A stretch of 63,235 nucleotides of DNA, the filler included, from Rozella allomycis CSF55 (Eukaryota), in assembly GCA_000442015.1 (NCBI GenBank). It is 9 parts of 9 records of this genome, joined end to end, with 100 filler letters (N's around TTAATTAATTAA, not from the genome) between each part and the next. Parts side by side here need not be neighbours in the genome. Positions count along the whole stretch, not along the records: positions 29,800 to 46,737 come from KE561084.1; 8 more parts are not named here. One strand, written 5' to 3'. Below the pieces are notes generated by a model. The model was not told the origin of the DNA, searched no databases, and worked only from the letters and a program-made list of their open reading frames with translations. Positions 948-57,570 of the stretch are shown one piece after another. The translations under genes and the position numbers were made by a program. Numbering within the stretch: the stretch's first letter is position 1; each line of letters starts with the position of its first letter.

Positions 948-1028
948 TTTGAAATAAAAAAGTTCTTCCCGTTTATTCAGTTTATTCGGACCCTTATCAT
1001 CTATGGTAAGCCACGTTAAGTACCCTGG

Positions 1029-4000: not shown

Positions 4001-6996
4001 TGGCCTTGGACATTAAGGTAACTATGAATGTCACGTAAATATATTAGAATGAAGATAAAGACAAAAGAGAATTGGAAAATTTTAATGGAATCGCAATACG
4101 AAAGGTGAATGCTTTTTTCCGATACTACAAGTCTGATTTGGCGATTGGGATGGGTATCAATTTGATATTTACAATTAAAAATGAAGAATTCGACTATGGG
4201 GACTTTATTCTTGAAGGAACTAAGGATATTAAAAGCTATATTGATTTGGATTTGAATGGGGCGATCGAGAAGAGAAGTGCTGCATTGAGTTTTCTCGTTA
4301 GTGTATCTGTGAATGGTGAGTGGAAAAGAACATTGGGTATTGAGCGTTTGACAACCAAGGATTTGAAGTTTGAAGTTGGCATTACAACGGGCCCTCCTTT
4401 TACATTAGAATTTCTGATTCAACTTGAAGCGAAATATGGCACTGCAAGATATAATTTCGGCGGTCGCGGATTAGTTGTGCGCAGGGCTGACATGTCGCTG
4501 GTGGATTTATCATTGCATGGCATATCATTGAAGAACTTTGTCGGCGCTTTACTTGACGATTGCATAGCTGATTCCGTTCCAGATTTGTTAAACAACCTGT
4601 TTAGACTAGATCACTTTAGTTTCATATTTTCCACAAAAGAAATAAAATTAGGCAAGAAAGTTTACAAACAAGGCTATTCCATAAAGACAAAGCTGACTCT
4701 TTTGGGAGTTACCACAAGTGCTGTATTTGATTTTGACACAGAAAGATTATATTCAAAGATTGAAGTTGGTCCAATCAATATTTTTGGTCTTGAGATTTTA
4801 AGATTTAAGAACAGTGACCTAGGCCCAACGTTTGAGATTGATATATCGAGGAAAGCTAGAAAATTCCCCACCTTAGATTTCCAAGGTTATGGCAATCTTG
4901 GGTTCGTTTCAGCAGAGGTTAAAGTCGCCTTGAATAAAGACCATTTTCTGCTATCGTGCCAAGGCAATTTATTTAACTTGCTTTACTCTCAATTTAAGAT
5001 TGAGGCTGGTCCAGATTTGATTCATGTAAGCGGAAACATAACAACAGATGCGGTAACCTCTTCATACCACTGAATAATATAGTTTTCAACCCTTTTGGAC
5101 TCCAACAAAGATGGCGTCAACAAATCGGCAAAAGAAGAATTGAAATCCAAACAACGCAACCTTGATAATACAGAGAAACGCGCTAAGCAGTTTAAAGATG
5201 ATTTGAACAAACGGAAGAAATCGAATGTCAAATTTGAGATTGAGAGTATTAATGAGTTCATAAAAAGATATAACACGGTTGTCGGTATTCTTAACAAAGG
5301 AAATAGTGCAACTGATGATGCTGCCAAACAAAAACATCTTGAACAAGCAGAAAAAATAGCAAGGGAAATGAAGTCAATAGCCGAAAAATCTCAAATGTCA
5401 TCAGACCACAGTAATGCGAATAGTAATAGAAACAGACACGGCGATGTCAACAGGGATGTCAGTGTCCATGAAAGCCGTAACAGGGAAGATTGTGATTTGA
5501 ATGTTGAAAGAAATGTTGAAAGAAATGTTGAAGAGATAAATAATAATGAAGAGATAAATGGTGAAAGAAATGTTCTTAGCAGTGTAGCTAGAAATGTTCT
5601 AGGCAGTGTTCTAAGCAGATTTGTTAGAAATGATCAAAGAAATGATCAAGGAAATGATCAAAGAAATGATCAAGGAAATGATCAAAGAAATGAGCAGAGA
5701 AATGATCAAAGAAATGAGCAGAGAAATGGTCAAAGAAATGATCAAAGAAATGATCAAAGAAATGAGCAGAGAAATGATCAAAGAAATGATCAAAGAAATG
5801 AGCAGAGAAATGATCAAAGAAATGATCAAAGAAATGCTGATATTGATATTAGAAATGAACAAAGAAACGAGCAAGGAAATGTCAATATTGTTGTTAGATT
5901 CTTGTATCGAATTTTCTCGGAATTTTTCTCTCTCTTCAAAGACGTAAACATTAAGAAGGAATATGTTTTCATCATACTTACATTTGCACTTTTCGCAATT
6001 CTTAAAAATGTAGTTATGATTCCACGCGATTTTGATTTTCTATCCTTTGTGATTCCTTTGTGTTCATTGATTTTCTTTATTTTTCTATTCTTTTATGTCG
6101 TTCTTTCTTTTTCCCGTTTTGTTGTGTCTACCATTGAGAGACTATACTATTATTTCGAAGACTTTGCCATCAAGTCAGGCTATGTTTCCTCATACTTTGG
6201 TTTTATCATTCATAGAGTTTTTGTTTTATTGATCAACATGCTGCCATATGTGTTTGTACCACTTGCTAGAACTGGCGTTATTAGTGGTGAATTCGAAGAC
6301 TTATTTCCAATCGAGGCGTTATTTTGGTACTTTTTGTATCAAATCGGTCCAGAGATAACAAATCATTTAGATATTGCATTAAAACCACATTACAGCAAGA
6401 TTCGAGGCATAATTGTATCCAAATACAATTCAATGAAATCGACTCTTCTAAATAAATTAAAACCGTATTTGGATAAGATTCGAGACATGACTTCACCAAA
6501 GTCATTCGACAAGGTTAGAACTGAAGGTGACACCATTCCATATCCACAACATCATTTTCATAACAGCTTCCATCTATTTGAATTCGACTTGATTGATAAA
6601 AAAAATTTAAAACGTTTGGAATATCTAGCTTATGCAGTTATGGCTTCTCTTTTAATGACTTTCTTGGTTAGCTATATTAGGTCATGCCAAAATTGTGTCT
6701 CTTTGGATAGTTTTATTGATATTTTTCCTTCAAATAAAATAATCCCTGAAGTCTTTAATAATCGTTTTCTCACAAATCAAAATTCAATAAATCAAAATTT
6801 AATAGGTGAACATGTACAACCCTGGTTAAATTTAAATAAGGAAAATTATGAAATTGTTACGGGAAAAGACACAAACATAAAGGAATTAAAAGGAAACAGG
6901 GAAAGTAATAAAATAACCGAAATCCTCTCGTCAAATGGCCCAGATATCAATAATACGAAATTCGATGATCTTTGCAATTTTTTAAAGCCTTTATAA
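1029..6996 (+). CDS. Giant (~1960 aa) uncharacterised protein: signal peptide, long beta-strand-rich region, coiled coil, N(D/E)QR repeat, multi-TM C-terminal region
   Basis: Four ORFs join in frame through GT-AG introns at 3577-3604 (28 nt), 4018-4047 (30 nt) and 5053-5082 (30 nt). N-terminus MKKCFFIVLLFSVFC is hydrophobic; several hydrophobic segments follow 5950. Confidence 0.7.
5626..5836 (+). repeat. Coding 12-bp tandem repeat (AGAAATGATCAA/AGAAATGAGCAG) encoding RND(E)Q
   Basis: About 17 directly visible 12-nt units inside ORF 5095-6996. Confidence 0.95.
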
Positions 6997-8939: not shown

Positions 8940-10115
8940 GATGAAGGAGGACGAAGTTCGAAGAAGGCACTTAGATGATGAAGGAGAAGTTGAAGCCCAG
9001 GAGGGGTGAAGGAACTTGNGAGTTATGAGCCCGGCGCGCAGAAGTGTTGATTCGATACTCAGATTTGGGTCCTCCGGTATGTGAGAACTGGAGTAGGGAG
9101 AAGTTCGAAGAAGGAACTTAGATGATGAAGGAGAAGTTGAAGCCCAGGAGGGGTGAAGGAACTTGATGAAGGAGGAAGAAATTCGAGGAAGGAACTTAGA
9201 TCTTAGATGATGAAGAAGAAGTTTGAAGGAACTTAAATGACGAAGAAGTTCGGTGAGGGAACGTGATGAGGAAAGGAGAGAGAAAGAAAGAAGTAGAGAG
9301 AGAAGATGGAGCGACAGAGGGGACAGAGAAAGGGAGAGAGTAGATGGAGCCACAGAGGGGAAAGAGAAAGGGAGAGAGTAGATGTAAAAAGGGAAAAGAG
9401 AAAGGGAGAGAGTAGATGGAGAGAAGGAGGGAAAAGAGAAATGGACGAGAGTGAAAGGAAGTAGACGAAAGAGAAGAATAGATAGGTAAAATGATAGACG
9501 AGAAAAAGAGGGAGAAAAAGAGTGGCGAGAGAGGGAGAGAAAGAGTGGAGAGAGAAGGAGCGAAAGAGTGGAGAGAGAAGGAGAGAAAGAGTGGAGAGAG
9601 AAAGAAGTGGAAAGAGTGGAGAGAGAAAGAAGTGGCGAGAGGACATGGCGAGAGAAAGAGTGGAGAGAGCAGGAGTAGAAAGGAGAAGGAAAGACAGAAG
9701 ATACAAGTAGGGGAGAAAGAGAAAGAGAGTAGATCGAAGAAAAAGGGAGAGAGTAGAAAAAAGCGAGGAGATGAAAAGAGAGAGGGAGATAAAACGTGGA
9801 GCGAGAGGGAGGGAGAGAGAAAGAGGGGAGAGAGAGGCATAGCATGCGTGGAGAGAGAGGGAGGCAGAGAAAGAGTGGAGAGCAGAAGAAAGATGAACTA
9901 TAGAAAACGGGAAGAAAGGAAGAGGCAGGACAGACGGATGAGTGAAAAGGAGAGAGAGGGAAAGAGAATGTAGATATATGGAAAAACTGAAGGAATGACA
10001 AAGGTGAAATTGAGGAAAGAACGACAATAGGAGAGAGGAAGATGGATAAAGATAAAGAGAAGATGTTGGCAGAAGAGGAGATGAAGTATAGAAAAAGAAG
10101 GAACGAAGAGAAGCT
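8940..10115 (+). repeat. Purine-rich (GA) low-complexity tract with internal duplicated segments
   Basis: + strand is almost only G/A from about 9240 to 10115. The segment GATGATGAAGGAGAAGTTGAAGCCCAGGAGGGGTGAAGGAACTTG is duplicated at ~8974 and ~9121. Confidence 0.85.
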
Positions 10116-22419: not shown

Positions 22420-22781
22420 AATTCAAAAATAATTCAATTTAAAAATAAAAGTTTAATTCTTTATTTCTTTTGTAGCTCCTTCCGTTTTGGTTTTCAAGTT
22501 AACGGTGGNCGTAGAATTCAAAAATAATTCAATTTAAAAATAAAAGGTTAATTCTTTATTTCTTTTGTAGCTCCTTCCGTTTTGGTTTTCAAGTTAACGG
22601 TGGTTCTTGAGTTAAGTAAAGAACTTCCGAGTTTAGATGACTTATTGACGTTCTGTAACGCAAGTTAATAATAATTACCTTNNNNNNNNNNNNNNNNNNN
22701 NNNNNNNNNNNNNNNNNNNNNNNNNTTAATTAATTAANNNNNNNNNNNNNNNNNNNNNNNNNNNNNNNNNNNNNNNNNNNN

Positions 22782-25009
22782 CCAGTTTGTCTCCCTCTTG
22801 AGTTTCTACATTTAGCAATTTCCAACTCAGATGCGGATAAAGATGAATGTTGAAGAGGAGCCAAGGAATCTTCCAAATTTGAAAGTAAAGGCTGATTCTG
22901 GGAAAAAACATCGATTTTCAAAGGTAGATTCAATTCAACTTTTGATTTAGATATAGATGTAGATGTCTGTTGAAGAGGAGCCATGGAATCTTCCAAATTT
23001 GAAAGGATAGGTTGATTCTGAGAAGGAACATCGATTTCCAAAGGTAGATTCAATTCAATTTTGGATTTAGATAAAGATTTATATGGATGTTGAAAAGCAG
23101 CCATAGAATTTCTGGAGTGTTTATGAATAGATTGATTCTGGGATTGATCATCGTTTGCTTCATACGATTCCCGACATAAATCGACCACAGGTAAGTTCAT
23201 ATTTGAAATTAATTTAGATTGAAATACATTTAAAGGAGTCTCTTTAGAGTGAGATAAATGTTGAAGAGGATCCACAAAATTTTCCAAACTTGTATAGACG
23301 GGTTGACTTCGGGAACCATCGTTTGTCAAAGGTAGATTCATTTCAATATTTGATTTAGATGAGTATAAAGATGGATTGATAAGAGGAGCCAAGGAATCTT
23401 CCAAATTTGAGAGGACTGGTTGATTCTCGGAAAAGACATCGTTTTGTAAAGGTAGATTCATTCCAATTTTTGATTTGGATATAGATTTCGATGGAAGTTG
23501 AAGAGGAGCCATGGAATCTTCCAAAATTGAAAGGATAGATTGATTCTGATTATTAACAACTTTCGCAACAGATGATGATTGAGTGCAGTCGACCATAGGT
23601 AAGTTCATTTTTGGAATTAATTTAGATTTAGATAGATGCGAAAGAGTTTCATAAGAGTGAAATGGATGTTGAAGAGGATCCATGTAATTTTCCAAATTTG
23701 TTTGAGAAACAAAAAGTTCTTCTCCTGGAGAGTAATCATTTTCCAACTCGTGTTTGTAGTCATCTTGTATCTCGTTGCCAGAAAGCTTCTGTCCAGGAAT
23801 ATTAAAGCACATATTTCCATTGTTTCCATCCCTTTCAATTTGCATTGAAAATATTTTATTTTTAAATAAATTTGTTTGTTCGAGGTTCATTTTATTCTCT
23901 TTGCCTGTCGTGTTGAGTCCAAAAGGAAATTGGCTGAGCCATTTGTTTTGGTTGTCATGATTAAGAGAAGATTGAAGTAAGACCCTTTCATCCTTTAATT
24001 TAGGTTCACGATGTAACATTTTTGAGATTAAAGAACATGGAATTTCTTCCAGCTCGAGACGATCATTTTTGGTGTCTCCAGGGATCAAGGGGGAAAAACA
24101 TGAGGAGAAACCCGAAGATGGTACTTCCAACTTATTCTCTGATTTAGATATAGATTTTCCAGAAGGTATGCCAGAAGATTTTGATGGATTCGATATGTAA
24201 CCTGTTAAAGTATCCGGTTTTGTGATGGATTTGGAATCCATATAAGAGAAAGTATGAGACGGCTCGTAAGAGTTGTTTCTTTCCTTTTGTTTACCCGGTA
24301 AGTTCAAGTCATGTTTATTATTAGTAGACGAAAGGTTAGAGTGAGAAGATTGAAACTTCTTGGAAGGGGTAAGAACATTACAAGACTTTCCTTTTGAGGT
24401 GTTCTCATCCGAAATAGAAATAGGTAAGTCTTTGTTGGATTTAAAAACATTTTTGAAATAGTTTAAAATAGATTTAGAAGAGTTAGAAGATTTAGACTTA
24501 AAATTCTTTTTGCGTATAGACCGAAGAGGTTTCTGTTTTATAGGCTTAGAAGATGAAGAAAGTTTGGAAATTGATGTTAAACTTATTAAAGATGATGTTG
24601 AAGTTGAAGCATCGACTTGATAAGGTAATAATTGATTATTAGTTAGTTTTAAATTAGATATAGATGTGGAATTAGAAATAGAAGATGGACAAGGAAGATC
24701 AATCAACATTACCCCATCAAGATCCGATGAAGATAGAGATGAAGGACAAAGAATTGGTGAGTCTGAAGCTCGTAAGTTAGAAATTTTAGAATTAACATTA
24801 GATTGATTTAAATTAATAGAAGGAAGAGAAGAAACAGAAGGACTATGCAAGACATCTTTTTCCCCAAGTAAGTTTATATCATTATCATCATTTAGATTAA
24901 CATTATCACTTAATAAATTTTCATTCTCATCGACAAATTCATCATTTTCAACATCTTCGACAAAGTTTCCCAATGGATCAGAACCAAACGTGGACTTGAA
25001 GTAGTCCAT
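22782..25009 (-). CDS. Intronless Ser-rich hypothetical protein with ~40-aa degenerate tandem repeats; 3' end truncated by gap
   Basis: More than 740 open codons; repeated SKSKxxxNLP...NQPILSNLEDSMAPLQ with ~120-bp periodicity (22860-23700). Confidence 0.65.
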
Positions 25010-25129
25010 ATGTTGGTTAATGTTTCTATNNNNNNNNNNNNNNNNNNNNNNNNNNNNNNNNNNNNNNNNNNNNTTAATTAATTAANNNNNNNNNNNNNNN
25101 NNNNNNNNNNNNNNNNNNNNNNNNNNNNN

Positions 25130-32114: not shown

Positions 32115-33245
32115 TTATTTTTTATTGGATGTTAATGCCTTAAGGACCAAAGGAGCATTTGTTTTTGGTATGCTCGCTGTATTTCGAAAATCAAAAACCG
32201 CGGATGTTGATAATCTTGGNTCGAAAACTGCGGATGTTGATAATTTTGGATTTAGTTGTAGCGACGCAAGGCCTTTGGAAGATGATGGCTTGTCAAATAT
32301 GGAAGACATTGCTAAATCTAGCCTTTTCTTTTTTGTTGATTCAGTTAAACAATATCGAATGTTTTACCTCTTTGATGACCGTAAAGGTTTCTCTTGGCCA
32401 GCTGAACATCACGAGGTGTCTCTTTAGCAATCGGACAATTTAAACCTGTTCTGTTCCTGAATGACTCTTCATCTGCTTGTTTAGCTTTTTCGTCTTTTTT
32501 CTGGGACCTTAAATTAGATCGAAGCATTTTAGAAATAGAGTAATCGTCGCGCCATTGGCTTTTCTTATTTTGAAGTTCCAAAATAACAGGGGCTGCCTGT
32601 TCAGCTTTTCTTTCATCTTCAACTTGATGCTCTAATCTGTAGAATGCATTTTCATTTAGTTTCTTTGATTCCTCAAGATCTATTTCAGCAAAATAAAATT
32701 TGTTACTTGTTAACTCTATGGCCTCACTGTCTTCTCTTTCCCAAGTTTCTATTTTCTTCCTACAGCCACTTTTGCAGACGTATACTGCATTCTAAGATTC
32801 AATTAGATGCCAATAGATATACCTTTGGATCAGATTCCATCTCTAACCAACCTAGACATGTTGGACAATGAAACTTGAAATGCCAGATAGGCGTAGAGAA
32901 ATAGTAGCCCACTTTAGTCTTTTCTGAATTAAATCGAACTCCTTGCCCAATGTGAGTATCACAATGAAGACACCAAATATTAAAGGGATTCTCGAATCTC
33001 TCTATAATCTTTTACAATATTACCTAAACGTTAGATTTGCTTCACGGGGTTCTTGTCGTCGTTTCTTTCTATGTGTCTTGTTGTAAAATTTGTTTAGCGA
33101 TTCCTATTTCGATAACAAAAAAGTGTATACTTTATGAGGATCGTAATCAGGATGGTAATATTTTTGTTGTGCTTTTCTTTCAGCCTGAAGAAATACTTGC
33201 TTTAAAGANCAGCCTGAATAACATACTTGCTTTAAAGATTACCAT
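32115..33245 (-). CDS. CCDC130: CWC16/YJU2-family splicing factor (CCDC130/YJU2B type)
   Basis: M|AERKAQQKYYHPDYDP, RFENPFNIWCLHC..IGQGVRFNSEK..VG.Y.STPIW.F...C..C, W.DDYSISKMLR. Confidence 0.85.
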
Positions 33246-33318
33246 GAGTTTTCGAAATTTCTAAAATGAAAGAAGTGAAAAGAAATTGAAAGTGGAAGGT
33301 TAAAAGGTTTATTGTTTT

Positions 33319-36300
33319 TTAGCTTACCGATTTTCTACCAGAGAGATTTGAATCTTTGATTATGGATCCGTCACCGGCTGTAGCGAGCACAGCAGTCAGC
33401 ATACCAAGAAATTGTTCAAATTTTTCAGGCTACAGTGATTACAATTGCATACAGTTACTTGTAAGCAAATTGTTCCAGAATTTGTCTTTATTTCAATGAC
33501 TTTAGAGTCTTTATCAGAAAGTACAGTAGCGTTTATTAGTTTTATTTCGTATGCATTCTAATTGAATAAGAGAATGTAATTTCCTTTACTATTGAATTTT
33601 CTTGAGACCCAATGAATATGGCGGGAGGTCTTGATTCAACCAAATAAACTGAGCAATATTCCCACCTTGAGAAAAACCTTGTAACTGGATTTTTGCTTTC
33701 AATCAAGACGGGCATTTCTGATATTGCCAATTTGGCGACCTTCATTGCAGCGATGGATTGCTAGATTGTTTCGGAGTTGAGACGTTACTTTTAATGTGCC
33801 GTACCCTATGTTTTCATCAATTTTGGATGTTTCAGGTGCCATTGTAGTTGATTGCTTCTTGCCCTTATCTTTGAAGACAGCCAAAACTTTTGGAATGAAG
33901 AGGATTGCGATAACAGAACAGTCTGAGAATATGATTACAGCTGAGGAAATGATAAAAGTAGTTTCAATGGAGCTATTTGAAGTCAATTCAATCATCAAAA
34001 CAAGAGCGGAAGACAAGAGAACGTTGTAGAGGGAGAGGGCAATGGATTGACTTTCATTGTAACGAGCATAAGCAGATCTAGACCCATAAGCTAGAAGTGC
34101 GCCCATAATCATTAAAATTGAATTGTAGCATAAAAGTAAACCAAGCATTGTCCATTCAAATGTTTTGTTAACTGAAGAACAAGTGTATCGATTGTTGATC
34201 AACACTTCACGAGGCGGATCAACAAGAGTCCAGATCAAACAAAGCAACTAAATTTTAGTTTTTAATCATAAATTACAATTTCCCCTAAAAGCACCGAAGC
34301 TGCAAACATCATCACAGTGCCATTCATGACGGATCGTTTAATTGCTTTGCGCATGTTGAATATTTTGTAAATTCTCCAAGTCTTGGCTAATAAATTTCTT
34401 TTTAGCTTTAAATATTAAGGATTACCCCATGATTAAGCCGAGCCCAATTGGTAACAACCAAATCTTTGCAATACAATTTGAATCACTTGTAACTGAAGAT
34501 ATGAAGACATGAGAAAACACAAAAATAGATCCAATTAGAATTAAAATGCAAAACACTGGTGATGATGAGAGAATCACTGGATGGCTTTTATATTTCAAAA
34601 TGAAGATTATCAATCCAAGAATCAAAAAAATACCTTTGAAAAATAAAGAAACTATTTTACCAAATGAATTTACAGATGAAACAACAACAAATGAAGAATC
34701 CTGAAATGTCATTTTTTCTGGCTTAAAATCTTTAAAAAAAATTATCAATTAAAATACTTGTAGAACAATCTGAACCATAATATCCAGACTTACATGTACA
34801 CGTGCCATCATCATTACAAACCCCATTGCTAGAACAATTCGATGGGCAAGCAGCTTAAATAAATAAAACAGAATAAAATTTACGACAAATGCTTCCAATA
34901 TTTCTGGTTAAATCAGTTTCACACCAATAGTTTAAAATATTCGTTTGATTGACTATTATTGGTCCAGTTTTAATCAAACTGCTTTGAGGCAAGTATCGAT
35001 TTGTTTTATCAAACAATGCAAGAAAATAAACTGATAAATACCCTTGCAAATATGGCTGATCAAATATCGTAAAAGATATTTTTCCTAAAGAAATTCCCTT
35101 TGCCAGCGTTGATGACAAGCCAATCCCTGCGATTGTTTTACCATTCATTACAGAAGAATAACTGCTCAGTGTTAACAACGCTTCTCCAACAATTATAGAT
35201 TGAAAAAATATGCCAGTAATTGCAGGATCACCCACCAGTGTATTTGTCACATCCAACGACAATTGATCTGCATTTCTTGCCGTCACTAGAAGATAGTTAT
35301 TAGATCCAGAAATATAAACACTTCTATTGCGTAAAATAAATGCATTTTCAAATCCATTGCATCTTTCAATTGTCGTGTCTTGGCCAAGCTGATGATTCAA
35401 ACAAAGTCCTTTCATAACACCCTTGTCCATCAATTCATTTGCAATCTTAAAACCAACATCATAATCATTCGTTCCAATATGCGTTTTCACAAATCCAAGC
35501 GATGAAGAAGCATTAGATCCCGTTGCGACTGATATTATTGTTATGTTTCTGCTGTTCATAGACGACAGCGATGTTTGAAGAGCACTTAGATTGGGAATGG
35601 TTGTCACAACACCCATTGCTGAACTAATAGAGTCTAATAAAGTTTGAAGCTGAAATGTATCATATAAAGTAATATTGTGCAGAACAATATCAACACCAAA
35701 ATCTTTAGCTGCTTGATTGGCTCCATTGACAAGCATTTTCCAATACGCATCTACTTGTGGATTCCCATGGATAACAACATGAATAGGATCATTGGATCTA
35801 GTAAGAGTACAGTTTCCAGATAAAATGCATCTAACCTTGCCAATGTTATTCCTATTATACAAAGCAGGACCTTTGATTCAGTTTAATACTGTTTACCAGT
35901 GAACAAATATGTATCAACGATGCTTTGATTCAAATACGATAAGTATTGCATCAAAAATGGAAAGTAACCTTGCAAATATTCTTGTTGGTCTATAACAAGA
36001 GTCAAATTGTTATTGTATATTTGATTCGATATATCTAAATTTACATTAACCACTCCAAGCCCTATGTTGCTAATGTTTAAATTCAAATATCTAATAGCGT
36101 TTCTTGTAGGCGTTAAATGCTGACTAGACAGGAAAATACAATCTGTTTGAGAATAATTAGAGAGCAACTGAACCATCTTTGCGTATATTAAATTGTTGTC
36201 TCCAGTTTCTGCCACATCTTCCACTTGGTAATCCATTCCTGCTTCAAGTACAGCAGTCTTAAATCCTAAACATCTTGAATTCAAACCAGCATTGCCATAT

Positions 36301-36815
36301 TGTCCTTTTATACACATTGTCTTGTTCTTTCCTAATGACGCAAAATACTTTCCTGCTTTATATCCAGAATTAAACTCTATCTGCCCTATATGTAAAGACG
36401 ACCCGACTGATGCTGCAAACTGATCACCACTGTTAAATGTAAACACTTTAACGCCTTTCCTAGTAGTCCTATTAATCGCAGCGCCTACATTAGCTAGATC
36501 ATATATTGTTGATGACAGTGATGAGTATTGACCAGATGCCGCAGCGTTTTCGATATTCTGCGCTTGTTGCACAGCATTAACTCCATTAGTAGCTGATATC
36601 ACGACTCCATTTATCCCAGTAAAAGAATTCTTCGCTGCCGTCCAGCCTGTTTGTGCGCTAGCCCAAAAGGGACTTGTGATGGGATTGTCATGAATAATCC
36701 ATGCAAACTTCATGTTTTCACGTCTAACACATTTTTTACACACAGAATAATCTGATTGAATAATCAAGTCAGCATAAACGGTGGCGAGCAGAAGGAAGTA
36801 ATGGAAGGGTCGCAT
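33319..36815 (-). CDS. Class C (GABA-B-like) GPCR: signal peptide, two periplasmic sugar-binding (PBP type I) domains, EGF domain, 7TM, PH-like tail
   Basis: Signal MRPFHYFLLLATVYA; two repeats of H..(P/A)(F/Y)W...G...A ... HIG....(S/V)G ... RC.GF ... DQ..YLQGY; EGF CPSNCSSNGVCNDDGTCTCKSGYYGSDC; class C motifs SSSPVFC, AKTWRIYKIF and YNESQSIALSLYN, FIPK. Joined in frame by 26-32 nt introns (e.g. 35871-35896, 34854-34883, 33761-33788). Confidence 0.85.
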
Positions 36816-37070
36816 TATTTGTTTACAAAACGGGACGTTCCAGAACACTAAAAAATCATCGTAATTGAGGCAAAGAATATTATTCCATCGATTATTACCA
36901 AATTTAAAGAAAAGGGTCAATAGTACTACGCACAGCTTGGGTTTTGATTAATGCTTTAATCGTGAAATGTTCAAACTTGTAAATCATTTGGAATTTTCTA
37001 GTTTTCTATGCTTCTCTCTTCATTCAGCGATTTGGAATTTACGAATACGGAAATGGAATTTTGATAGGGT

Positions 37071-42751: not shown

Positions 42752-43795
42752 TTATTGATTATTTATAGTACTAGCGCTCTTTTTTGTCTCATCAAAGGTT
42801 TTGGACCCGTTAGCTTTTCTCATCAATGCATTAATTGACGATGTCAATGATTTTCCGATGCTGGATTCGATATTTTCAGTAGTTCTGCCTTTTCTATTTA
42901 GCCTACTTTCATTATTGGCTTTGATGGCTCCCTTAACGTCGACGAACGTCGAATTGTAAAAAAACAAACTAAACAATACGAAAGTTATAGTAGTAGAATG
43001 AACGTATGATTTTGTTATGCTGATAGTTTCTGTATACGCTAATGCCATCGTGATTATTTGTATCAGCTGTTCTATTGAAATTATCAACCCGAGTTTTGCT
43101 GTATCTGATCTTGTCAAGTACGCAAAGTATCCAGATCTTTCATAGACCTTGTGCCCAATGTAAAACAATACTAATAGAGTGTTGCCTATCACCATAAGTG
43201 ATGTAAAAATGGTCTGTATCATATTGGATGATGATAAGGCGCTAAAATATGCCTTCTTTAAAGCAGGATCTGTTTCAAACTCTCTGTAAAAATGAGTGTA
43301 TACAACTGAAATTGAAAAACCTACAATCAATCCACTGAGCACAAAGTTAATCCCTAGCATAATATGACGTCTCCTTTCTTCTGTAATAATCATATGTGAG
43401 CGCACGCTAACAATAATACATAGCATGATCTTAGCTAATAAATAAATCACCACAAAGCCAACAATGAACTGAGAGCGTCCAATTTTATCAGTACGATCTC
43501 GATAAGGAGGATAATCATTGAATACAAATCCCATGATAATTAGAGAAAATACCAAAACGTTAAAAAACCTGTAGAAAAACACGAGAAGTTTGTTATTGCT
43601 TTCGATTGGTTTAAATGAAACATTCAATAGTAAGAGTAAATTAATAAGGCATATGTTCAGAATAAGCGGATAGTTATAGTCGACGCTATATGTGGGGAAA
43701 GTTGCATGGCTTGGTGCTGCCGTAGTAGGTACCGCATTGGTCGTTGAAGTTATTAATGTAGATGCATTGATAATCGTTGACGTTACTTGACTCAT
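42752..43795 (-). CDS. Putative 7TM receptor-like protein, paralog A
   Basis: Intronless; Thr-rich N-terminus, about 7 hydrophobic segments, polar tail; paralogous to 43849-44784. Confidence 0.75.
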   Translation of the reverse strand: MSQVTSTIINASTLITSTTNAVPTTAAPSHATFPTYSVDYNYPLILNICLINLLLLLNVSFKPIESNNKLLVFFYRFFNVLVFSLIIMGFVFNDYPPYRDRTDKIGRSQFIVGFVVIYLLAKIMLCIIVSVRSHMIITEERRRHIMLGINFVLSGLIVGFSISVVYTHFYREFETDPALKKAYFSALSSSNMIQTIFTSLMVIGNTLLVLFYIGHKVYERSGYFAYLTRSDTAKLGLIISIEQLIQIITMALAYTETISITKSYVHSTTITFVLFSLFFYNSTFVDVKGAIKANNESRLNRKGRTTENIESSIGKSLTSSINALMRKANGSKTFDETKKSASTINNQ

Positions 43796-43848
43796 TTTGT
43801 AAATGCGATTGTGATTTGGTAACCAGGGAAAACAAAAACTCAATTTTC

Positions 43849-44784
43849 ATGAGCACGATCACGTCAAAAACTACAACAAGCACACTTCCTACAACAGGAA
43901 GCACAACATCTTCGACTCCCATCTTCCCCAAATACAAGGTAGATTTTAATTACCCTATTGTCTTAACAATGTTGCTGTTTTGTTTACTTACAACTGTCAA
44001 TCTCTTACGTAAAAGGCTTTCACATGAAAATCTAAAGTACAAAATTGCTTTTAGAATCATGAACATGCTCACACTACTGGTGATCGTATTAGGCTATTTT
44101 CTAAACGACTATCCAGATTTCAGAGATAAGATTGATAAAAAGGGTCGCTCAATATTGATAATGTCTTTCATAGGAGTCCACATGGTAACCCGCCTGATCG
44201 ATTGCTGCATGATATGCATCCAGAGTTTCAATCGTATTGCAGACAAGCCTTTTAAATTTCGTTGTTCAATATATCTTATTAACATATCATTGACACTAGG
44301 GATCACATATTTTGCTAGCGTCATTTTTTACAACCACTACTTCCGTGAATTCGAAACAGATACGGAAAAAAGAAAGGCATACACAGAGAGTCTACCCACT
44401 TATGCATTTCCAATAATGTTTCTGTATTCATTACTGTGCGTACCCAACCTTTTTCTAGTCCTTCAATACGTCGACAAGAACTTGTTCAACTCTCCACTTT
44501 TGTTTTTCAAGAACCCCGTTACTAGACTTGTAGTGTTTCGCATAATAGAACAGCTATTTCATGTTATATATATGGGAATGCTTTTGACGAAATCCGCCCC
44601 ATTTGCCAGGTCTTGTGTTCAATCTACTACTGTGACTTTAACTATTTCGATTGCCATTTTGTATAGAACAATGTTCTTTGATGATAAGAAGCAAGAAAAG
44701 GCGCTTGCATTAAATAGCACCAAATTGAAAAGCACAAACAGCGTCATTGTTTCAAAAGTCAGCGAATCAACAAATGTCCAATAA
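43849..44784 (+). CDS. Putative 7TM receptor-like protein, paralog B
   Basis: Shares FPxYxVD(Y/F)NYP, NDYPx(Y/F)RDxxDKxGRS, REFETD and SxVxSTT(I/V)T with paralog A. Confidence 0.75.
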   Translation: MSTITSKTTTSTLPTTGSTTSSTPIFPKYKVDFNYPIVLTMLLFCLLTTVNLLRKRLSHENLKYKIAFRIMNMLTLLVIVLGYFLNDYPDFRDKIDKKGRSILIMSFIGVHMVTRLIDCCMICIQSFNRIADKPFKFRCSIYLINISLTLGITYFASVIFYNHYFREFETDTEKRKAYTESLPTYAFPIMFLYSLLCVPNLFLVLQYVDKNLFNSPLLFFKNPVTRLVVFRIIEQLFHVIYMGMLLTKSAPFARSCVQSTTVTLTISIAILYRTMFFDDKKQEKALALNSTKLKSTNSVIVSKVSESTNVQ

Positions 44785-53318: not shown

Positions 53319-56079
53319 NNNNNNNNNNNNNNNNNNNNNNNNNNNNNNNNNNNNNNNNNNNNTTAATTAATTAANNNNNNNNNNNNNNNNNNNNNNNNNN
53401 NNNNNNNNNNNNNNNNNNATCTTACCTGATTTCCGAAATTACTCAAACTGAAAAATAACTATTTTTAATGATAAATCCACCCTTTTCCCCACCAGCTTCA
53501 CCCGATTCCTTTAATTTTTTAGGTAATTTTTGAACCCGATTTTACCTACACTTTTTTTCGGAAAAATCCAAGTTCAAAAACAAAGGTTGGGCTAAAAAAA
53601 CTGAAACCTAGAGCCAAAAATATCAAAAACAGGATCAAAACAGAACCACCGAAATCCGAATGAGCAAATGCTTTACGACAATAACAATTTTGATTACTAG
53701 CGGTTGTACTCGCCTCGCTCGCATTAAAAAACTGGATTGTGTTCGTTATGTTTGTCAATTCTCGCATAGATAAAACCGATACTNACGACAATAACAATTT
53801 TGATTATGAGCTTCCTGAAGAAATATGTGATTATGAGGGTACTGAATGCGAGGAAGAGGCCTCATCCCATGATAAAAGGATAAAACCGATACTACAATCC
53901 AGATGGTAAGCAGAAGAATTATGTGATTATGAGAGTACTGAATGCGAGGAAGAGGCCTCATCCCATGATAAAAGGCAACAACTCAAGCGATTGCGTTCGA
54001 TATCAATCAAGCCAGACTTACTAAAAAACAATCATAAGAAGTAAAACATGCAGCGGTAAAGAATGTTCTGTCTCTGACTGTCATGAACCTGCATATTGCC
54101 GATGTACATCCTGCCTATTAAATCCCGTTTTCTGTAACAGTCATGGTTCATTGCATGCGAATAATATGATGACGTGCTTCGTAGTTAATAAAAAGCAAGA
54201 ATATCAATTGAAACCGTATGATACAATATGGAAGGTAATTGCAGATCAATTTGACATTCCCATACAATGCAAACTTCATANCGGAACGTAGCCTGTGAAG
54301 AATATACCTTTGGTTACCGTGAACGGTTGGAATTACGTGCTGCCGACGATGTCCATTAACGAATTACTATCTCAGAACTTCATACCAGCTTCTCCAGAGA
54401 ATCCTATAGTTGCATTTCATTTAGCATTGTTTAAATTGGGCGGTTCATGTACCTAACAGGGAACCTTTCGTATGAAACAATATGGAAGGTAATTGTCGAT
54501 CAATTTGACATTCCCATACAACGCAACTCTTATAACTTTTAATAATTTAAGTAATTACAAAGATATTGCGGCTGACATTTTAGCAACGCGCCGAGAATGC
54601 TTTAAGACAAGGATTATCTCAAGACATGGAAGAGCAAATAAGAATGACTGCATTCCGCATTAAATCGGCAAAAACTAAGATGGATACTAAATTAGGACCA
54701 GTAGCTTTAGAGTATTATAAAGACGACTTTAAGGACGCTAAATCAAATCTACACAAGCAAATGGTATCTTACAATTCAAGTAGAGCTTCGCCTGATCAAA
54801 TATGTGAATCGATTGTTTTGAATAACTAAGAATATGTAATTGAATGTGATGCTTTAAAATCAAAAGTGACTGCGTGGAAAAATCTGTAAGAAATTAAAAT
54901 TCGACTGGGTGATCTAAAAAGAATAGCTACCAATCCAAAAGCATGTTTAACTGTTCAAGATGAAGCTACAAAAGAGTTTTATGATCAATATTTGACATCA
55001 AAAGATCAATTCATGTTAGAAGCAAATGAGCACTTCACTAANNNNNNNNNNNNNNNNNNNNNNNNNNNNNNNNNNNNNNNNNNNNTTAATTAATTAANNN
55101 NNNNNNNNNNNNNNNNNNNNNNNNNNNNNNNNNNNNNNNNNACAAGCCAGTTATTAATATAATATAACTTTTCTGCCGAATTTCCTTAAATAGATTTTGT
55201 TTTTACCCCTTAAATTTTTAAACTCATTTTGTATCATAACTAATAATCATGTTATCTTTATTTACCTAAAATCAATTTGGAATTATCGTAAATAAAAACA
55301 AGCTGTTGCTTTAGTCAAAACATTGCTAAATTTATCGTCCCTCAAATTTTTAATTTTGGTTTATCTAACAAAAATATATTGTCAGCAATTTTTGAATCGG
55401 TGGTCCGCGTTTTTGAAAATAGAGTGAGATACTGCCAATGCTGGTAGCTTGGAGATAAGTTAAGTATTATAGTTTTAAGTAGTGACACGTCATAGCGTTA
55501 GTTTACTCGTCAGGATAGTCTCATAAAGTAGATGAAACATGGACTACCCCTTAATGTCTTTTTGGACCAGTTAAAAGCTCATCCAAGTCCATCTATATAT
55601 AGATAGATCCTTAACATTGTTCATAATAATAACCATCCATCAATAACAAAACTTGACAGGTAAATGTAGACAATTGATGCCTTTACTGGAGCGATACCCG
55701 GTTTGGGTAACGTATCAAAATCTATGAGATCATGTAAAAGCATAAAAAATGTAGTGAGATCAGACATATGAAATTGTTTTAGCCTGTCAAAGATTGAGGA
55801 GGTAAAGAATTACAAAAAGGTGCCTACACGGCACCTTTATCAAAAACGGTTAGTTTTATAGAGTCTAACAACTTGATCTAGTAAAAAATATATATTTTAA
55901 TATAATTTTTTTTAAAGATTAGTAAAAACCGGTGTCTAATGCCGACAAATCAACGTGTTCACGTTATGTGATCATTCGCCTACGTGAGAGTCACGCGTGG
56001 GTATCTGCTTAACATTTAAACCTACTAGCGATATTTTTACCGCTAGATATTAATATGACATGTTGTTTATAGTATAATA

Positions 56080-57570
56080 TGATCAATCCTTTATTCAGGG
56101 GTACAAAATGTTTTGTTTACAATAACCTGGTTACCACCGATGCCAGGCAAAATTAAAGGAGAGTCAAATTTAGCTTGTAGACGTCGCATTTTGTCATTTA
56201 AGAAGGCAATCTACTTACCTCCGAGCTATCAATGTGTACTTTGCAGTGCTATTCTGTATCCTGAAGAAACCAAATTTGTCAGTCCCAACACGTTAGCGGA
56301 TTGTCCAATTATGACAAAATGGCATATTATGCCTCAACTTGTGAATGGACAATATCCTGTATGCAAGAATCAATCAAACAGTTGTCAATTGATTCTCTAC
56401 CCTGGTCCAATTCCAAAGGAAATTGACATTTTAAGCAAAAAGGAGACATCATATCTATCACCTGTGAAGGTTTTTGTAAAGTTTAGTACATCCAGTGGTC
56501 ATCTTTACAACAACAGAGGCGCAATTCATCAAAACACGGTGTCTTGAAACTTTTGCCAAATAATGACCACAAGTCCGTAATCAAATTGCTTCATTCAACA
56601 CTTTGTGAAGACTCAGAGTCGGCATCCTTTCAGAATCATTTAAAATTGATGGACGCCGCACAATTGTTATACCGAAATAATACTATTCTCGCATCTCTCG
56701 ACGAAAACGATTTCTTAACTAATGTCATCAAAAAAGCTGAACTTAACGTNTAATACACGATCATAACTTGTAAAATTAGGTCACATGATCATAAGGCCTT
56801 TGCCGTTACAGGAACTTTGATTTTTGATCCTTTGATGCACAATATGCAATCATTGTGAAACAAGACATATGAAGATCAATGTGATCAATCCTTTATTCAA
56901 GGGTACAAAATGTTTTGTTTACAATAACCTAGTTACCACCGATGCCAGGCAAAATTAAAGGAGAGTCAAATTTAGCTTGTAGGCGTCGCATTTTGTCATT
57001 TAAGAAGGCAATCTACTTACCTCCTAGCTATCAATGTGTGCTTTGCAGTGCTATTCTGTATCCTGAAGAAACCAAATTCGTCAGTCCCAACACGTTAGCG
57101 GATTGTCCAATTATGACAAAATGGCATATTATGCCTCAACTTGTGAATGGACAATATCCTGTATGCAAGAATCAATCAAACAGTTGTCAATTGATTCTCT
57201 ACCCTGGTCCAATTNTTCTCTGCCCTGGGGCAATTACAAAGGAGATTGAAATTTTAAGCAAAAAAGAGAGATCGTATCTATCACCAGTGAAGGTTTATAT
57301 CAAGTTTAGTACATCCAGTGGTCATATTTACAACAACAGAGGCGCAATTCATCAACACGGTGTCTTGAAACTTTTGCCAAATAATGACCATAAGTCCGTC
57401 ATCAAATTGCTTCATTCAACACTTTGTGAAGACTCATATATAAGTGTGTTAAATGGAGGTAATATAATTTTGGTTATCTGTAAAGNATGAGTTGATATGG
57501 GCTCTCCTACGCTATTTATCACATTAAGATGTAACGCATATGGCTGGCCAGAAATAAAGCAATATATAAG
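56080..57570 (+). mobile_element. Helitron/Helentron Rep-helicase remnants (two near-identical N-terminal copies plus Rep motif)
   Basis: 56080-56612 is repeated at 56882-57435 (CxxC...IPKEI.IL...E); at 57497 MGSPTLFITLRCNAYGWPEIK resembles Helitron Rep motif 1 (G.PxxFxT.....WPE). Confidence 0.6.

What the first reader, a model, noticed from the sequence alone, without database searches (positions are those of the whole stretch)
33319..36815. Class C GPCR built from two tandem bacterial-type sugar-binding proteins plus EGF
Seen: five short ORFs splice in frame through micro-introns into one receptor with signal peptide, PBP1 (~36710-35900), PBP2 (~35790-34940), EGF (~34850-34765) and a 7TM carrying GABA-B-like motifs (AKTWRIYKIF, NESxxIxxxxYN). 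Established: the H...FW...G...AA / HIG..E..G / RC.GF / DQQxYLQGY pattern is typical of bacterial sugar-ABC periplasmic binding proteins (Peripla_BP_4), not of the ANF-type Venus flytrap of animal class C receptors; class C receptors with other bacterial-like binding domains are known in anaerobic gut fungi and Dictyostelium. Inference: this is a two-site sugar or metabolite sensor, plausibly for zoospore chemotaxis or host finding. The two PBPs are clearly diverged and may bind different ligands; the ectodomain may have been acquired from bacteria.
Basis: partly seen in the sequence, partly recalled or inferred. Interest (0 to 1): 0.88.

Follow-up and report, generated by a model that had tools for sequence, protein, structure and literature searches.

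The report
Class C receptor, tandem sugar-binding domains
A nine-exon gene of the fungal parasite Rozella allomycis encodes a G-protein-coupled receptor whose outer part is two bacterial-type sugar/inositol-binding domains plus an EGF module; the gene is real but wrongly split in the public annotation, and it belongs to a little-studied receptor family shared with zoosporic fungi and diatoms.

Summary
On the minus strand, 36815-33319, nine exons (not five ORFs) joined by eight GTA...AG introns of 26-32 nt give a 1088-aa protein. It has a signal peptide, two Peripla_BP_4 domains, one EGF, a GABA-B-like 7tm_3 domain and a 127-aa tail without relatives. Pfam confirms each domain exon by exon, and the three 7TM exons match consecutive parts of the profile.

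The organism is Rozella allomycis CSF55. Its public models split the gene into a 605-aa "periplasmic binding protein" ending in out-of-frame junk and a 385-aa chimera with the next gene, CWC16.

The same collinear architecture occurs in Allomyces, Blastocladiella, Irineochytrium, diatoms and others. Rozella PBP1 groups with fungal first domains and PBP2 with fungal second domains, each 99/98. This is old vertical inheritance, not a recent bacterial or host transfer.

The nearest characterised relatives are a myo-inositol binding protein (4RU1) and the rhizopine binding-protein family. PBP1 keeps the bacterial pocket signature; PBP2 keeps only part of it.

Class C receptors with ABC-sugar-type domains were already reported in diatoms (PMC3727952). 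Verdict: real, mis-annotated, a new member of a known kind. No RNA evidence was available.

The parts
35897..36815 (-). Exon 1: start codon, signal peptide (about residues 1-15) and PBP1
   Evidence: 100% identical to residues 1-306 of public protein P0001.
35958..36677 (-). PBP1, Peripla_BP_4 domain (residues 47-286)
   Evidence: Pfam 5.7e-17, 62.5 bits. Model pLDDT 91.8. Best fold match 4RU1, TMt 0.83.
34884..35870 (-). Exon 2: D1-D2 linker with a conserved cysteine pair, then PBP2
   Evidence: C321 and C327 each conserved in 10 of 11 aligned full-length proteins.
35017..35757 (-). PBP2, Peripla_BP_4 domain
   Evidence: Pfam 9.4e-15, 55.3 bits. Model pLDDT 89.2. Best fold match 4RU1, TMt 0.89-0.90.
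34758..34853 (-). Exon 3: EGF module with six cysteines
   Evidence: EGF_Teneurin 2.1e-8, EGF_2 and EGF above their cut-offs. The EGF cysteines are present in 4 of 4 fungal and 0 of 7 other aligned proteins.
34426..34729 (-). Exon 4: TM1 to TM3
   Evidence: 7tm_3 profile positions 12-86, 36.7 bits. TM3 cysteine C753 conserved in 11 of 11.
34277..34397 (-). Exon 5: end of TM3, intracellular loop 2, start of TM4
   Evidence: 7tm_3 profile positions 90-127. Gap-free alignment to homologues across both junctions. Weak match to GPR156, E 0.029.
33789..34247 (-). Exon 6: TM4 to TM7 and start of the cytoplasmic tail
   Evidence: 7tm_3 profile positions 132-251, 62.0 bits. GABA-B1 match 8.8e-10. ECL2 cysteine C832 conserved in 10 of 11.
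33590..33760 (-). Exon 7: cytoplasmic tail, 57 codons; skipped by public model P0002
   Evidence: Open frame, chance p=0.0165. Codon score +0.16 in frame, negative in both other frames. No homologue support.
33459..33557 (-). Exon 8: cytoplasmic tail
   Evidence: Also an exon of public model P0002. Codon score +0.30.
33319..33429 (-). Exon 9: end of the tail and stop codon TAA
   Evidence: The 29-nt intron before it is shared with P0002. Codon score +0.30. By eye, the CWC16/Yju2 gene starts about 74 nt further on.

Best explanation
One gene of Rozella allomycis encodes a 1088-aa class C (GABA-B-like) G-protein-coupled receptor. Its ectodomain is a signal peptide, two tandem type-I periplasmic-binding-protein domains of the CUT2 sugar/cyclitol subfamily, and one EGF module directly before TM1. 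It is the Rozella orthologue of an old eukaryotic receptor family found in zoosporic fungi and, without the EGF, in diatoms and other protists. It is not a recent bacterial or host gift.

Likely mechanism (inferred): a small polyol or sugar, most plausibly inositol-like, closes the hinge of the membrane-distal PBP1. PBP1 keeps nearly all positions that are invariant in the bacterial relatives. The movement passes through the disulfide-stapled linker, the remodelled PBP2 and the rigid EGF stalk to the 7TM domain, which activates a heterotrimeric G protein, probably as a dimer as in other class C receptors.

My odds:
- Gene structure and architecture: about 0.9.
- Vertical membership of the fungal family: about 0.85.
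- Small sugar or cyclitol as ligand: about 0.5.
- PBP1 as the main sensing site: about 0.45.
For: Shown:
- Per-exon Pfam domains in collinear order, with consecutive 7tm_3 profile ranges.
- All nine exons are open and codon-biased in the chosen frame.
- Five junctions are validated by gap-free alignment to homologues.
- 8 of 8 eukaryote-type homologues tested by Pfam carry two Peripla_BP_4 stretches plus 7tm_3 in one protein.
- 20 of the 149 best non-self hits of an exhaustive HMMER search with PBP1 carry a 7TM region that matches Rozella's.
- Named members come from Allomyces, Blastocladiella, Irineochytrium, Dinochytrium, Catenaria, Seminavis and Rhizosolenia.
- Careful tree of 63 of my 202 domain rows: eukaryote rows against bacterial-type rows 99/99; PBP1 with fungal first domains 99/98; PBP2 with fungal second domains 99/98.
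- Rozella's 7TM is closest to Allomyces AMAG_07598: 29.6% over 250 residues, E 3.6e-38.
- Nearest solved structure for both domains is 4RU1, called 'a verified myo-inositol transporter' in a passage of PMC10747050.
- Best NCBIfam model for both is the rhizopine binding protein.
- Signature positions: PBP1 keeps all but two; PBP2 and 5 of 5 fungal second domains have lost several.
- Conserved cysteine pairs lie in both linkers and at TM3/ECL2.

Inferred from general knowledge of class C receptors (recalled, not tested here): hinge closure, dimer, G-protein coupling.
Against: - No transcript evidence. No RNA run holding the stretch was listed, and the one RNA run laid gave nothing (a blank, not evidence either way).
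- The last three exons have no homologue, so the 3' end of the model is the weakest part.
- The public annotation models the locus differently.
- The ligand guess rests on relatives at 20-29% identity. Scores to the rhizopine model (88 and 128 bits) are far below its 420-bit cut-off.
- PBP1 itself has D266N at a position that is D in 62 of 70 single-domain relatives.
- Reading the signature positions as ligand contacts relies on my recalled mapping to E. coli ribose-binding protein.
- G proteins of Rozella could not be looked for, because no genome is held.
Confidence: 0.75

Rival explanations
1. One reading: both PBP domains are working ligand sites with different specificities, so the receptor integrates two chemical cues.
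For: - Both domains fold confidently as complete two-lobed binding proteins.
- Both keep the aromatic W, the R-C pair and the Q-Q/Q-G motifs.
- In the diatom-type receptors both domains keep the full signature in 12-13 of 13.
Against: - Rozella PBP2 has N138A, D266G and a shifted 285-286 pair.
- All 5 fungal second domains have D266G, N138G/A and R191K/Y.
- This points to a remodelled or lost site in the fungal clade. A remodelled site may still bind something else.
Confidence: 0.25
2. The public annotation is right: the locus holds a secreted tandem binding protein and, separately, a short membrane protein fused to CWC16. There is no single receptor.
For: These are the deposited models P0001 and P0002. 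No RNA data contradict them (blanks).
Against: - P0001 leaves the PBP2 frame after residue 549 and ends in 56 residues read out of frame across the EGF and TM exons, using false introns of 238 and about 300 nt.
- P0002 starts in the middle of TM5. Its Saf4_Yju2 match starts only at profile position 21, while a plausible CWC16 first exon lies unused at about 33107-33184 (by eye; no Pfam hit on 26 residues).
- Homologues in at least five fungal genera and in diatoms carry all the parts in one protein.
Confidence: 0.04
3. The ectodomain, or the whole gene, came recently by horizontal transfer, from bacteria or from the host Allomyces.
For: - The domains look bacterial at first sight.
- The nearest Atlas clusters are 100% bacterial.
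- The best full-length match is from the host genus.
Against: - Identity to any hit is at most about 30%.
- Rozella branches outside the chytrid plus blastoclad group for the first domain (99/92), and is not nested within Allomyces for either domain.
- Bacterial-type rows are separated at 99/99.
- The gene has eight spliceosomal micro-introns and the window's own codon usage.
Confidence: 0.04
4. The gene is a decaying or silent relic in a reduced parasite genome.
For: - Long terminal branches of both Rozella domains (1.43 and 1.55).
- D266N in PBP1.
- No expression data.
Against: - 1088 codons are open across nine exons, with intact splice signals.
- Conserved cysteines, the TM7 P-K pair and the TM3/ECL2 cysteines are retained.
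- Codon bias is present in every exon.
Confidence: 0.05

Closest known systems
Allomyces macrogynus AMAG_07598 (KNE62374.1, UniRef A0A0L0SIV5; P0027), with relatives in Blastocladiella britannica, Irineochytrium annulatum, Dinochytrium kinnereticum and Catenaria anguillulae
   Same: Collinear signal peptide, Peripla_BP_4 x2, EGF and 7tm_3. Positional orthology of both binding domains. Best 7TM match. Same cysteine pattern in the linkers and the EGF.
   Different: Only 25-30% identical. The cytoplasmic tails show no similarity to Rozella's (phmmer; hhalign probability 0.1%). None of these proteins has a studied function, and I found no paper describing them as a family.
[quoted passage not shown]
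   Same: Peripla_BP_4 x2 plus 7tm_3. Same wider clade of eukaryotic domains.
   Different: No EGF module (0 of 7 non-fungal proteins aligned). Both domains keep the bacterial signature. The AU test neither rejects nor shows that the duplication is shared with fungi (p 0.124). I read only passages of the paper; it does not mention a tandem arrangement in them.
Animal GABA-B receptor subunits and GPR156
   Same: Closest solved 7TM domains. No nine-cysteine NCD3G domain.
   Different: GABA-B has a single ANF-type flytrap and works as a GB1/GB2 heterodimer (recalled). Here there are two Peripla_BP_4 domains plus an EGF, and no ANF match.
Class C receptors of anaerobic gut fungi (PMC5168858) and of Allomyces, Spizellomyces and Dictyostelium (PMC3251606)
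   Same: Non-animal class C 7TM domains joined to bacterial-type binding domains, sometimes with an EGF (passages).
   Different: Those papers list type II binding proteins (SBP_bac_1, OpuAC, LysR_substrate, PBP_like_2), pectin-lyase folds, Bmp and ANF. Peripla_BP_4 and a tandem arrangement are not named in the passages I read. Their figures and supplements were not seen.
Bacterial CUT2 binding proteins: ACEI_1806 (PDB 4RU1, myo-inositol) and the rhizopine binding-protein family NF052284
   Same: Fold (TMt 0.83 and 0.90). Shared motif pattern. Closest named family.
   Different: Free periplasmic proteins encoded beside ABC permease and ATPase genes: 1 of 1 locus examined, L017. At least 591 bacterial loci hold the motif. 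The Rozella domains are fused in tandem to a 7TM domain and score far below the family cut-off.
Bacterial sensors that use a Peripla_BP_4-type domain for signalling: BT1754 fructose-binding sensor domain (2X7X) and the XylFII-LytS complex (5XSJ)
   Same: Both appear among the fold neighbours of PBP1. They show that this fold can drive a membrane signalling protein rather than a transporter.
   Different: Their output is a histidine kinase, not a GPCR. Bacterial, and a single domain.

Membership tests
Class C (glutamate-family) GPCR, Pfam 7tm_3 PF00003 | 7TM region matches the 7tm_3 model above its gathering score | tested here: met
   E4 36.7 bits and E6 62.0 bits against a 33.5-bit cut-off; consecutive profile ranges over three exons.
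Class C (glutamate-family) GPCR, Pfam 7tm_3 PF00003 | Seven membrane-spanning segments after a large extracellular N-terminus with a signal peptide | tested here: met
   Kyte-Doolittle scan gives seven segments, residues 693-925; 14 sequons in the ectodomain. Hydrophobic N-terminus. A crude method, not a topology predictor.
Class C (glutamate-family) GPCR, Pfam 7tm_3 PF00003 | Conserved TM3-ECL2 cysteine pair and the P-K pair at the end of TM7 | tested here: met
   C753 in 11 of 11, C832 in 10 of 11, P928/K929 in 9-10 of 10 aligned family members. Aligned to 'lfvpkm' of GABA-B1.
Class C (glutamate-family) GPCR, Pfam 7tm_3 PF00003 | Couples to heterotrimeric G proteins and acts as a dimer | not testable with these tools
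   No genome of the organism is held. No complex prediction was run.
GABA-B receptor subfamily | Single ANF_receptor-type Venus flytrap as ligand site | tested here: not met
   No ANF_receptor match at E<=1; both domains are Peripla_BP_4. No class C flytrap among the listed fold neighbours.
GABA-B receptor subfamily | 7TM domain closest to GABA-B among solved class C receptors | tested here: met
   GABA-B1 8.8e-10 and GABA-B2 2.9e-8, against mGluR2 2.5e-4.
CUT2 sugar ABC-transporter binding proteins (Peripla_BP_4, PF13407) | Domain matches PF13407 above its gathering score and has the two-lobed type I fold | tested here: met
   62.5 and 55.3 bits against 35.1. pLDDT 91.8 and 89.2; TMt 0.83 and 0.90 to 4RU1.
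CUT2 sugar ABC-transporter binding proteins (Peripla_BP_4, PF13407) | Free periplasmic or lipoprotein partner of an ABC permease and ATPase | tested here: not met
   Fused in tandem to an EGF and a 7TM domain in a eukaryote. The bacterial relative L017 has the operon.
Rhizopine-catabolism binding protein, NCBIfam NF052284 (equivalog) | Score at or above the curated cut-off of 420 bits | tested here: not met
   88.2 bits (PBP1) and 128.1 bits (PBP2). It is the best-scoring model, but only a lead to the ligand class.
Tandem Peripla_BP_4 class C receptors of zoosporic fungi (unnamed family) | Collinear PBP-PBP-EGF-7tm_3 in one protein | tested here: met
   for Rozella. for Allomyces, Blastocladiella and Irineochytrium. 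EGF cysteines in 4 of 4 fungal proteins.
Tandem Peripla_BP_4 class C receptors of zoosporic fungi (unnamed family) | First and second domains are each orthologous across members | tested here: met
   PBP1 with 7 fungal first domains and P0032, 99/98. PBP2 with 5 fungal second domains, 99/98 (63 of 202 rows, chosen by me).

The most novel reading that the evidence does not exclude
In the fungal branch of this family the two flytraps have divided the work. The distal domain still senses an inositol-like cyclitol. The proximal one has lost the canonical pocket and become a relay, or a docking partner for the closed distal domain, on a rigid EGF stalk. That would be a class C activation path with no animal counterpart. 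In Rozella, an obligate parasite whose host Allomyces carries the orthologue, the receptor would read a host-derived cyclitol or sugar, either for zoospore targeting or for life inside host cytoplasm.
Probability: 0.15. Interest if true: 0.65.

Novelty: new member of a known kind. Interest (0 to 1): 0.36.

Why it matters
The find has three uses.

1. It corrects the record. The Rozella proteome used in comparative GPCR surveys (for example the UniProt proteome listed in PMC12716839) holds this receptor only as two wrong fragments. Its ectodomain is therefore invisible to domain censuses.

2. It shows that a tandem sugar/cyclitol-binding ectodomain on a class C 7TM domain is an old, widespread eukaryotic design. 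It occurs in Rozellomycota, chytrids, blastoclads, diatoms and others. The same tandem module is also joined to kinases and to a TRP-like channel in other protists. I found almost nothing about it in print.

3. It gives a concrete and cheap ligand hypothesis (inositols, inosamines, simple sugars) for a receptor of an unculturable-without-host parasite that sits near the root of fungi and microsporidia.

It does not overturn anything. That non-animal class C receptors borrow assorted bacterial-type binding domains has been known since 2012-2016.

Tried and rejected
**Data that were not available**
- Whole genome of the window: none held. Paralogues and G-protein genes could therefore not be counted. 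tblastn of the model against the window found no second copy.
- RNA evidence: no RNA holder was listed. The one RNA run with the same species label laid 0 contigs on 33300-36900.

**Searches that gave little**
- Word-index searches for longer relatives of E1 and E6 returned only the window's own public models. The exhaustive HMMER search was needed to find the family.

**Cytoplasmic tail (exons 7-9)**
- By eye it looked PH-like, and I thought the Allomyces and Irineochytrium tails might be similar. No test supported this.
- Pfam found nothing. phmmer found nothing beyond P0002. hhalign probability was 0.1%. The Atlas gave no usable hit for the Irineochytrium tail.
- I drop the PH idea. The spliced tail could not be folded, because only unspliced window sequence is accepted by the folding tool.

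**Other points**
- CWC16 first exon: the 26-residue piece gives no Pfam hit on its own, so its identification rests on my reading.
- One duplication shared by all eukaryotic members: the AU test does not reject it and does not show it (p 0.124). The group was named after I had seen the tree.
- Complex prediction for a dimer was not run. The alignments consist of monomeric bacterial proteins and a blank would say nothing.
- Literature: searches for 'Peripla_BP_4' with '7tm_3' and with 'GPCR' found 0 papers. De Mendoza 2014 names ANF, OpuAC and Bmp only in its main text. Supplements and figures of all papers were not seen and may list this architecture.
Full report
**1. What is there**

The window is AT-rich eukaryotic DNA, about 30-40% GC. 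Between 36815 and 33319 the minus strand carries a chain of open frames separated by very short gaps. I joined them at GT...AG sites that keep the frame. The result is nine exons: 36815-35897, 35870-34884, 34853-34758, 34729-34426, 34397-34277, 34247-33789, 33760-33590, 33557-33459 and 33429-33319. The eight introns are 26, 30, 28, 28, 29, 28, 32 and 29 nt, all GTA...AG. The protein has 1088 residues.

**2. Domains**

I gave each exon to Pfam by reference.
- E1 is Peripla_BP_4 (5.7e-17) and E2 is Peripla_BP_4 (9.4e-15).
- E3 is an EGF: EGF_Teneurin 2.1e-8, with EGF_2 and EGF also above their cut-offs.
- E4, E5 and E6 match 7tm_3 at profile positions 12-86, 90-127 and 132-251.
- E7-E9 match nothing.
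- No ANF_receptor match was listed for E1 or E2.

The spliced protein has a hydrophobic N-terminus, seven hydrophobic segments at residues 693-925 and 14 glycosylation sequons in the ectodomain. PBP1 and PBP2 are 23% identical (E 4e-11).

**3. Organism and public models**

Exon 1 is identical to the start of a 605-aa NCBI protein, 'periplasmic binding protein-like I [Rozella allomycis CSF55]' (P0001). Exon 6 is identical to part of a 385-aa 'DUF572-domain-containing protein' of the same organism (P0002). The lineage is Rozellomycota.

I mapped both models onto the window.
- P0001 uses my first intron. It then jumps 238 nt out of PBP2 into a wrong frame over the EGF exon, and again about 300 nt into a wrong frame over TM3.
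- P0002 begins inside TM5, skips my exon 7 with a 231-nt intron, and uses my last intron. It then runs by a 319-nt intron into the neighbouring CWC16/Yju2 gene. Its Saf4_Yju2 match starts only at profile position 21.
- By eye, the missing CWC16 start lies at about 33245-33107, some 74 nt beyond my stop codon. A 26-residue test piece was too short for Pfam.

So the public record holds the receptor only as two faulty fragments.

**4. Is it one gene?**

There is no transcript evidence. No RNA run holding the stretch was listed, and the one RNA run laid gave nothing. The case rests on three things.

(a) Homologues. An exhaustive HMMER search with PBP1 found 739 proteins at E<=1e-3. The best hits are long proteins with two matched stretches. 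Local phmmer with the parts of my model showed that 20 of the 149 non-self hits also match the Rozella 7TM region. Of these, 16 have two binding domains in front of it. Pfam adds P0134. Pfam confirmed two Peripla_BP_4 stretches plus 7tm_3 in 8 of 8 such proteins tested.

(b) Junctions. In a MAFFT alignment of my spliced model with ten full-length homologues, the junctions E1/E2, E2/E3, E3/E4, E4/E5 and E5/E6 fall in gap-free conserved stretches. For E4/E5 this fixed the choice between two possible acceptors.

(c) The tail. Exons 7-9 have no relatives, but three points favour them:
- The 57 codons of exon 7 would be open by chance with p=0.0165.
- All nine exons score positive for the window's codon usage in the chosen frame and lower in the other two.
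- Two of my eight introns are also used by the public models.

**5. Family and history**

Named members come from these sources:
- Allomyces macrogynus, A. arbusculus and A. javanicus (AMAG_07598 and relatives).
- Blastocladiella britannica, Irineochytrium annulatum, Dinochytrium kinnereticum and Catenaria anguillulae.
- The diatoms Seminavis robusta and Rhizosolenia.
- A picozoan and prasinophyte algae.

One named bacterial tandem protein (a Tetrasphaera MAG) also appeared.

I cut 200 domain segments out of 144 hit proteins, dropping segments under 180 or over 380 residues. FastTree on these plus the two Rozella domains already separated a eukaryotic group from the single-domain rows. A careful IQ-TREE run followed, on 63 rows that I picked to represent all groups. 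It gave:
- Bacterial-type rows (12 singles and 8 halves of 4 tandems) against 43 eukaryote rows: 99/99.
- Rozella PBP1 with seven fungal first domains and one metagenomic receptor (P0032): 99/98.
- Rozella PBP2 with five fungal second domains: 99/98.
- Fungal first domains without Rozella: 99/92.

In the bacterial tandems the two halves pair with each other, so those duplications are independent.

The AU test does not reject a single duplication for all eukaryotes (p 0.124; the group was named after seeing the tree).

Only one 'bacterial-type' row carries a bacterial name. However, a scan of 185,579 prokaryote species genomes with the singles' motif found at least 591 loci in Chloroflexota, Actinomycetota, Alphaproteobacteria and others. 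The one locus I examined has LacI, the binding protein, an ABC permease, an ATPase and a xylose-isomerase-like gene.

The Rozella 7TM domain is closest to that of Allomyces (29.6%, E 3.6e-38).

Together this says vertical descent of the whole receptor within early fungi. It does not point to a Rozella-specific capture from bacteria or from the host.

**6. What might it bind?**

- By sequence, the best solved relative of both domains is 4RU1 (1.5e-11 and 1.3e-12). All other PDB hits are sugar-binding proteins.
- AlphaFold models are confident: pLDDT 91.8 and 89.2. Their best Foldseek hit is again 4RU1, with TMt 0.83 and 0.89-0.90. Glucose/galactose, ribose, arabinose and allose binders follow, and a Caulobacter myo-inositol binder appears at rank 50 for PBP2.
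- A passage of PMC10747050 calls 4RU1's protein ACEI_1806 'a verified myo-inositol transporter'.
- The best NCBIfam model for both domains is the rhizopine (an inosamine) binding protein. It scores far below its cut-off.

An inositol-like cyclitol is therefore the best single guess, within the wider class of small sugars and polyols.

**7. One site or two?**

Seventy single-domain relatives are nearly invariant at a set of positions (numbering of P0016): W64, N138, R191, C192, D266, D285, Q286, Q287. By my recalled mapping to E. coli ribose-binding protein, several of these are ligand contacts.
- Fungal first domains keep N138, R191, D266 and Q286 in 7 of 7.
- Fungal second domains have D266G in 5 of 5, N138G/A in 5 of 5, R191K/Y in 5 of 5 and Q286E/P in 5 of 5.
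- Rozella PBP1 differs only at F265V and D266N.
- Rozella PBP2 keeps W64, R191 and C192, but has N138A, D266G and a shifted 285-286 pair.
- In the diatom-type receptors both domains keep the signature in most of 13.

I read PBP1 as the main sensor and PBP2 as remodelled, either for another ligand or as a relay.

Cysteine pairs are conserved in the D1-D2 linker (10 of 11 each) and before the EGF (10 and 11 of 11). The EGF cysteines occur in 4 of 4 fungal members only. This suggests stiff connections, as the cysteine-rich domain provides in mGluR-type receptors (recalled).

**8. The 7TM part**

TM5-7 aligns best with GABA-B1 and GABA-B2 (8.8e-10 and 2.9e-8), against mGluR2 at 2.5e-4. The alignment includes the N-x-S...Y-N-V stretch of TM6 and the F-x-P-K end of TM7. 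The TM3 exon aligns weakly with GPR156 (E 0.029). The TM3 and ECL2 cysteines are conserved in the family.

**9. What is known**

- Krishnan et al. 2012 (PMC3251606, passages) found Glutamate-family receptors in Allomyces, Batrachochytrium and Spizellomyces with ANF, Bmp, LysR_substrate, PBP_like_2, OpuAC and SBP_bac_1 domains.
- Seppälä et al. 2016 (PMC5168858, passages) found type II binding domains, pectin-lyase folds and EGF in gut fungi.
- De Mendoza et al. 2014 (PMC3971589, passages) name ANF, OpuAC and Bmp.
- Port et al. [quoted passage not shown]
- Searches for 'Peripla_BP_4' with '7tm_3' or with 'GPCR' found no paper.

The kind is therefore known. The tandem arrangement, its orthology across early fungi and the Rozella member are not, as far as these searches and passages show. 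Figures and supplements were not seen.

**10. Verdict**

It is too bold about novelty, bacterial acquisition and two sites. This is a correctly spotted, mis-annotated member of an under-described but public receptor family. Interest is moderate.

Noticed in passing
window 32345-33245 (minus strand): The CWC16/Yju2 splicing-factor gene follows the receptor after about 74 nt. By eye, its ATG (33245-33243) is followed at once by an intron. The public model P0002 misses this start and fuses the gene to the receptor's tail.
   Followed up: partly
window 33181-33238: A 30-nt unit is repeated twice (93% match) around a single N at 33209, inside the likely first intron or exon of CWC16. It looks like an assembly join rather than biology.
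   Followed up: no
window 56076-57358: Tandem duplication with about 800-nt spacing (copies 98% and 88% alike). Each copy holds an ORF of 154-185 codons with no Pfam family.
   Followed up: partly
window 42752-43846 (minus) and 43774-44784 (plus): Two divergently oriented, clearly paralogous ORFs (364 and 336 codons) of multi-pass membrane proteins with Ser/Thr-rich N-termini and no Pfam family. Their stop-to-stop frames overlap head to head.
   Followed up: no
window 9296-9882: Purine-rich (AG) repeats of 23-72 nt units. GC skew is 0.735 and GC 46%, the strongest compositional outlier of the window.
   Followed up: no
window 5626-5898: A 12-nt unit repeated about 18 times inside a 637-codon ORF, coding for a run of N/D-Q/E-R-N repeats.
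   Followed up: no
window 1020-5073 (plus strand): A chain of very long open frames (864, 202 and 341 codons) with no Pfam family. Probably one large gene of unknown kind.
   Followed up: no
window 22730-25081 (minus strand): A 783-codon Ser/Asn-rich ORF with internal 120-nt and 408-nt repeats, flanked by runs of N.
   Followed up: no
related proteins P0145, P0104, P0084, P0033: The same tandem Peripla_BP_4 module is joined to other outputs: a TRP-like channel with EF hands (cluster with Pycnococcus and Pseudoscourfieldia), a protein kinase, a HisKA domain, and PA plus ephrin-receptor-like domains in a picozoan. It is a portable sensor module, not tied to GPCRs.
   Followed up: partly
related protein P0032 (metagenome, 571 aa): The nearest relative of Rozella PBP1 (97/92) has one Peripla_BP_4 domain directly before a 7tm_3 domain. 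Its N-terminus is cut by the contig end, so a second domain cannot be excluded. It may come from an unsampled relative of Rozella.
   Followed up: no
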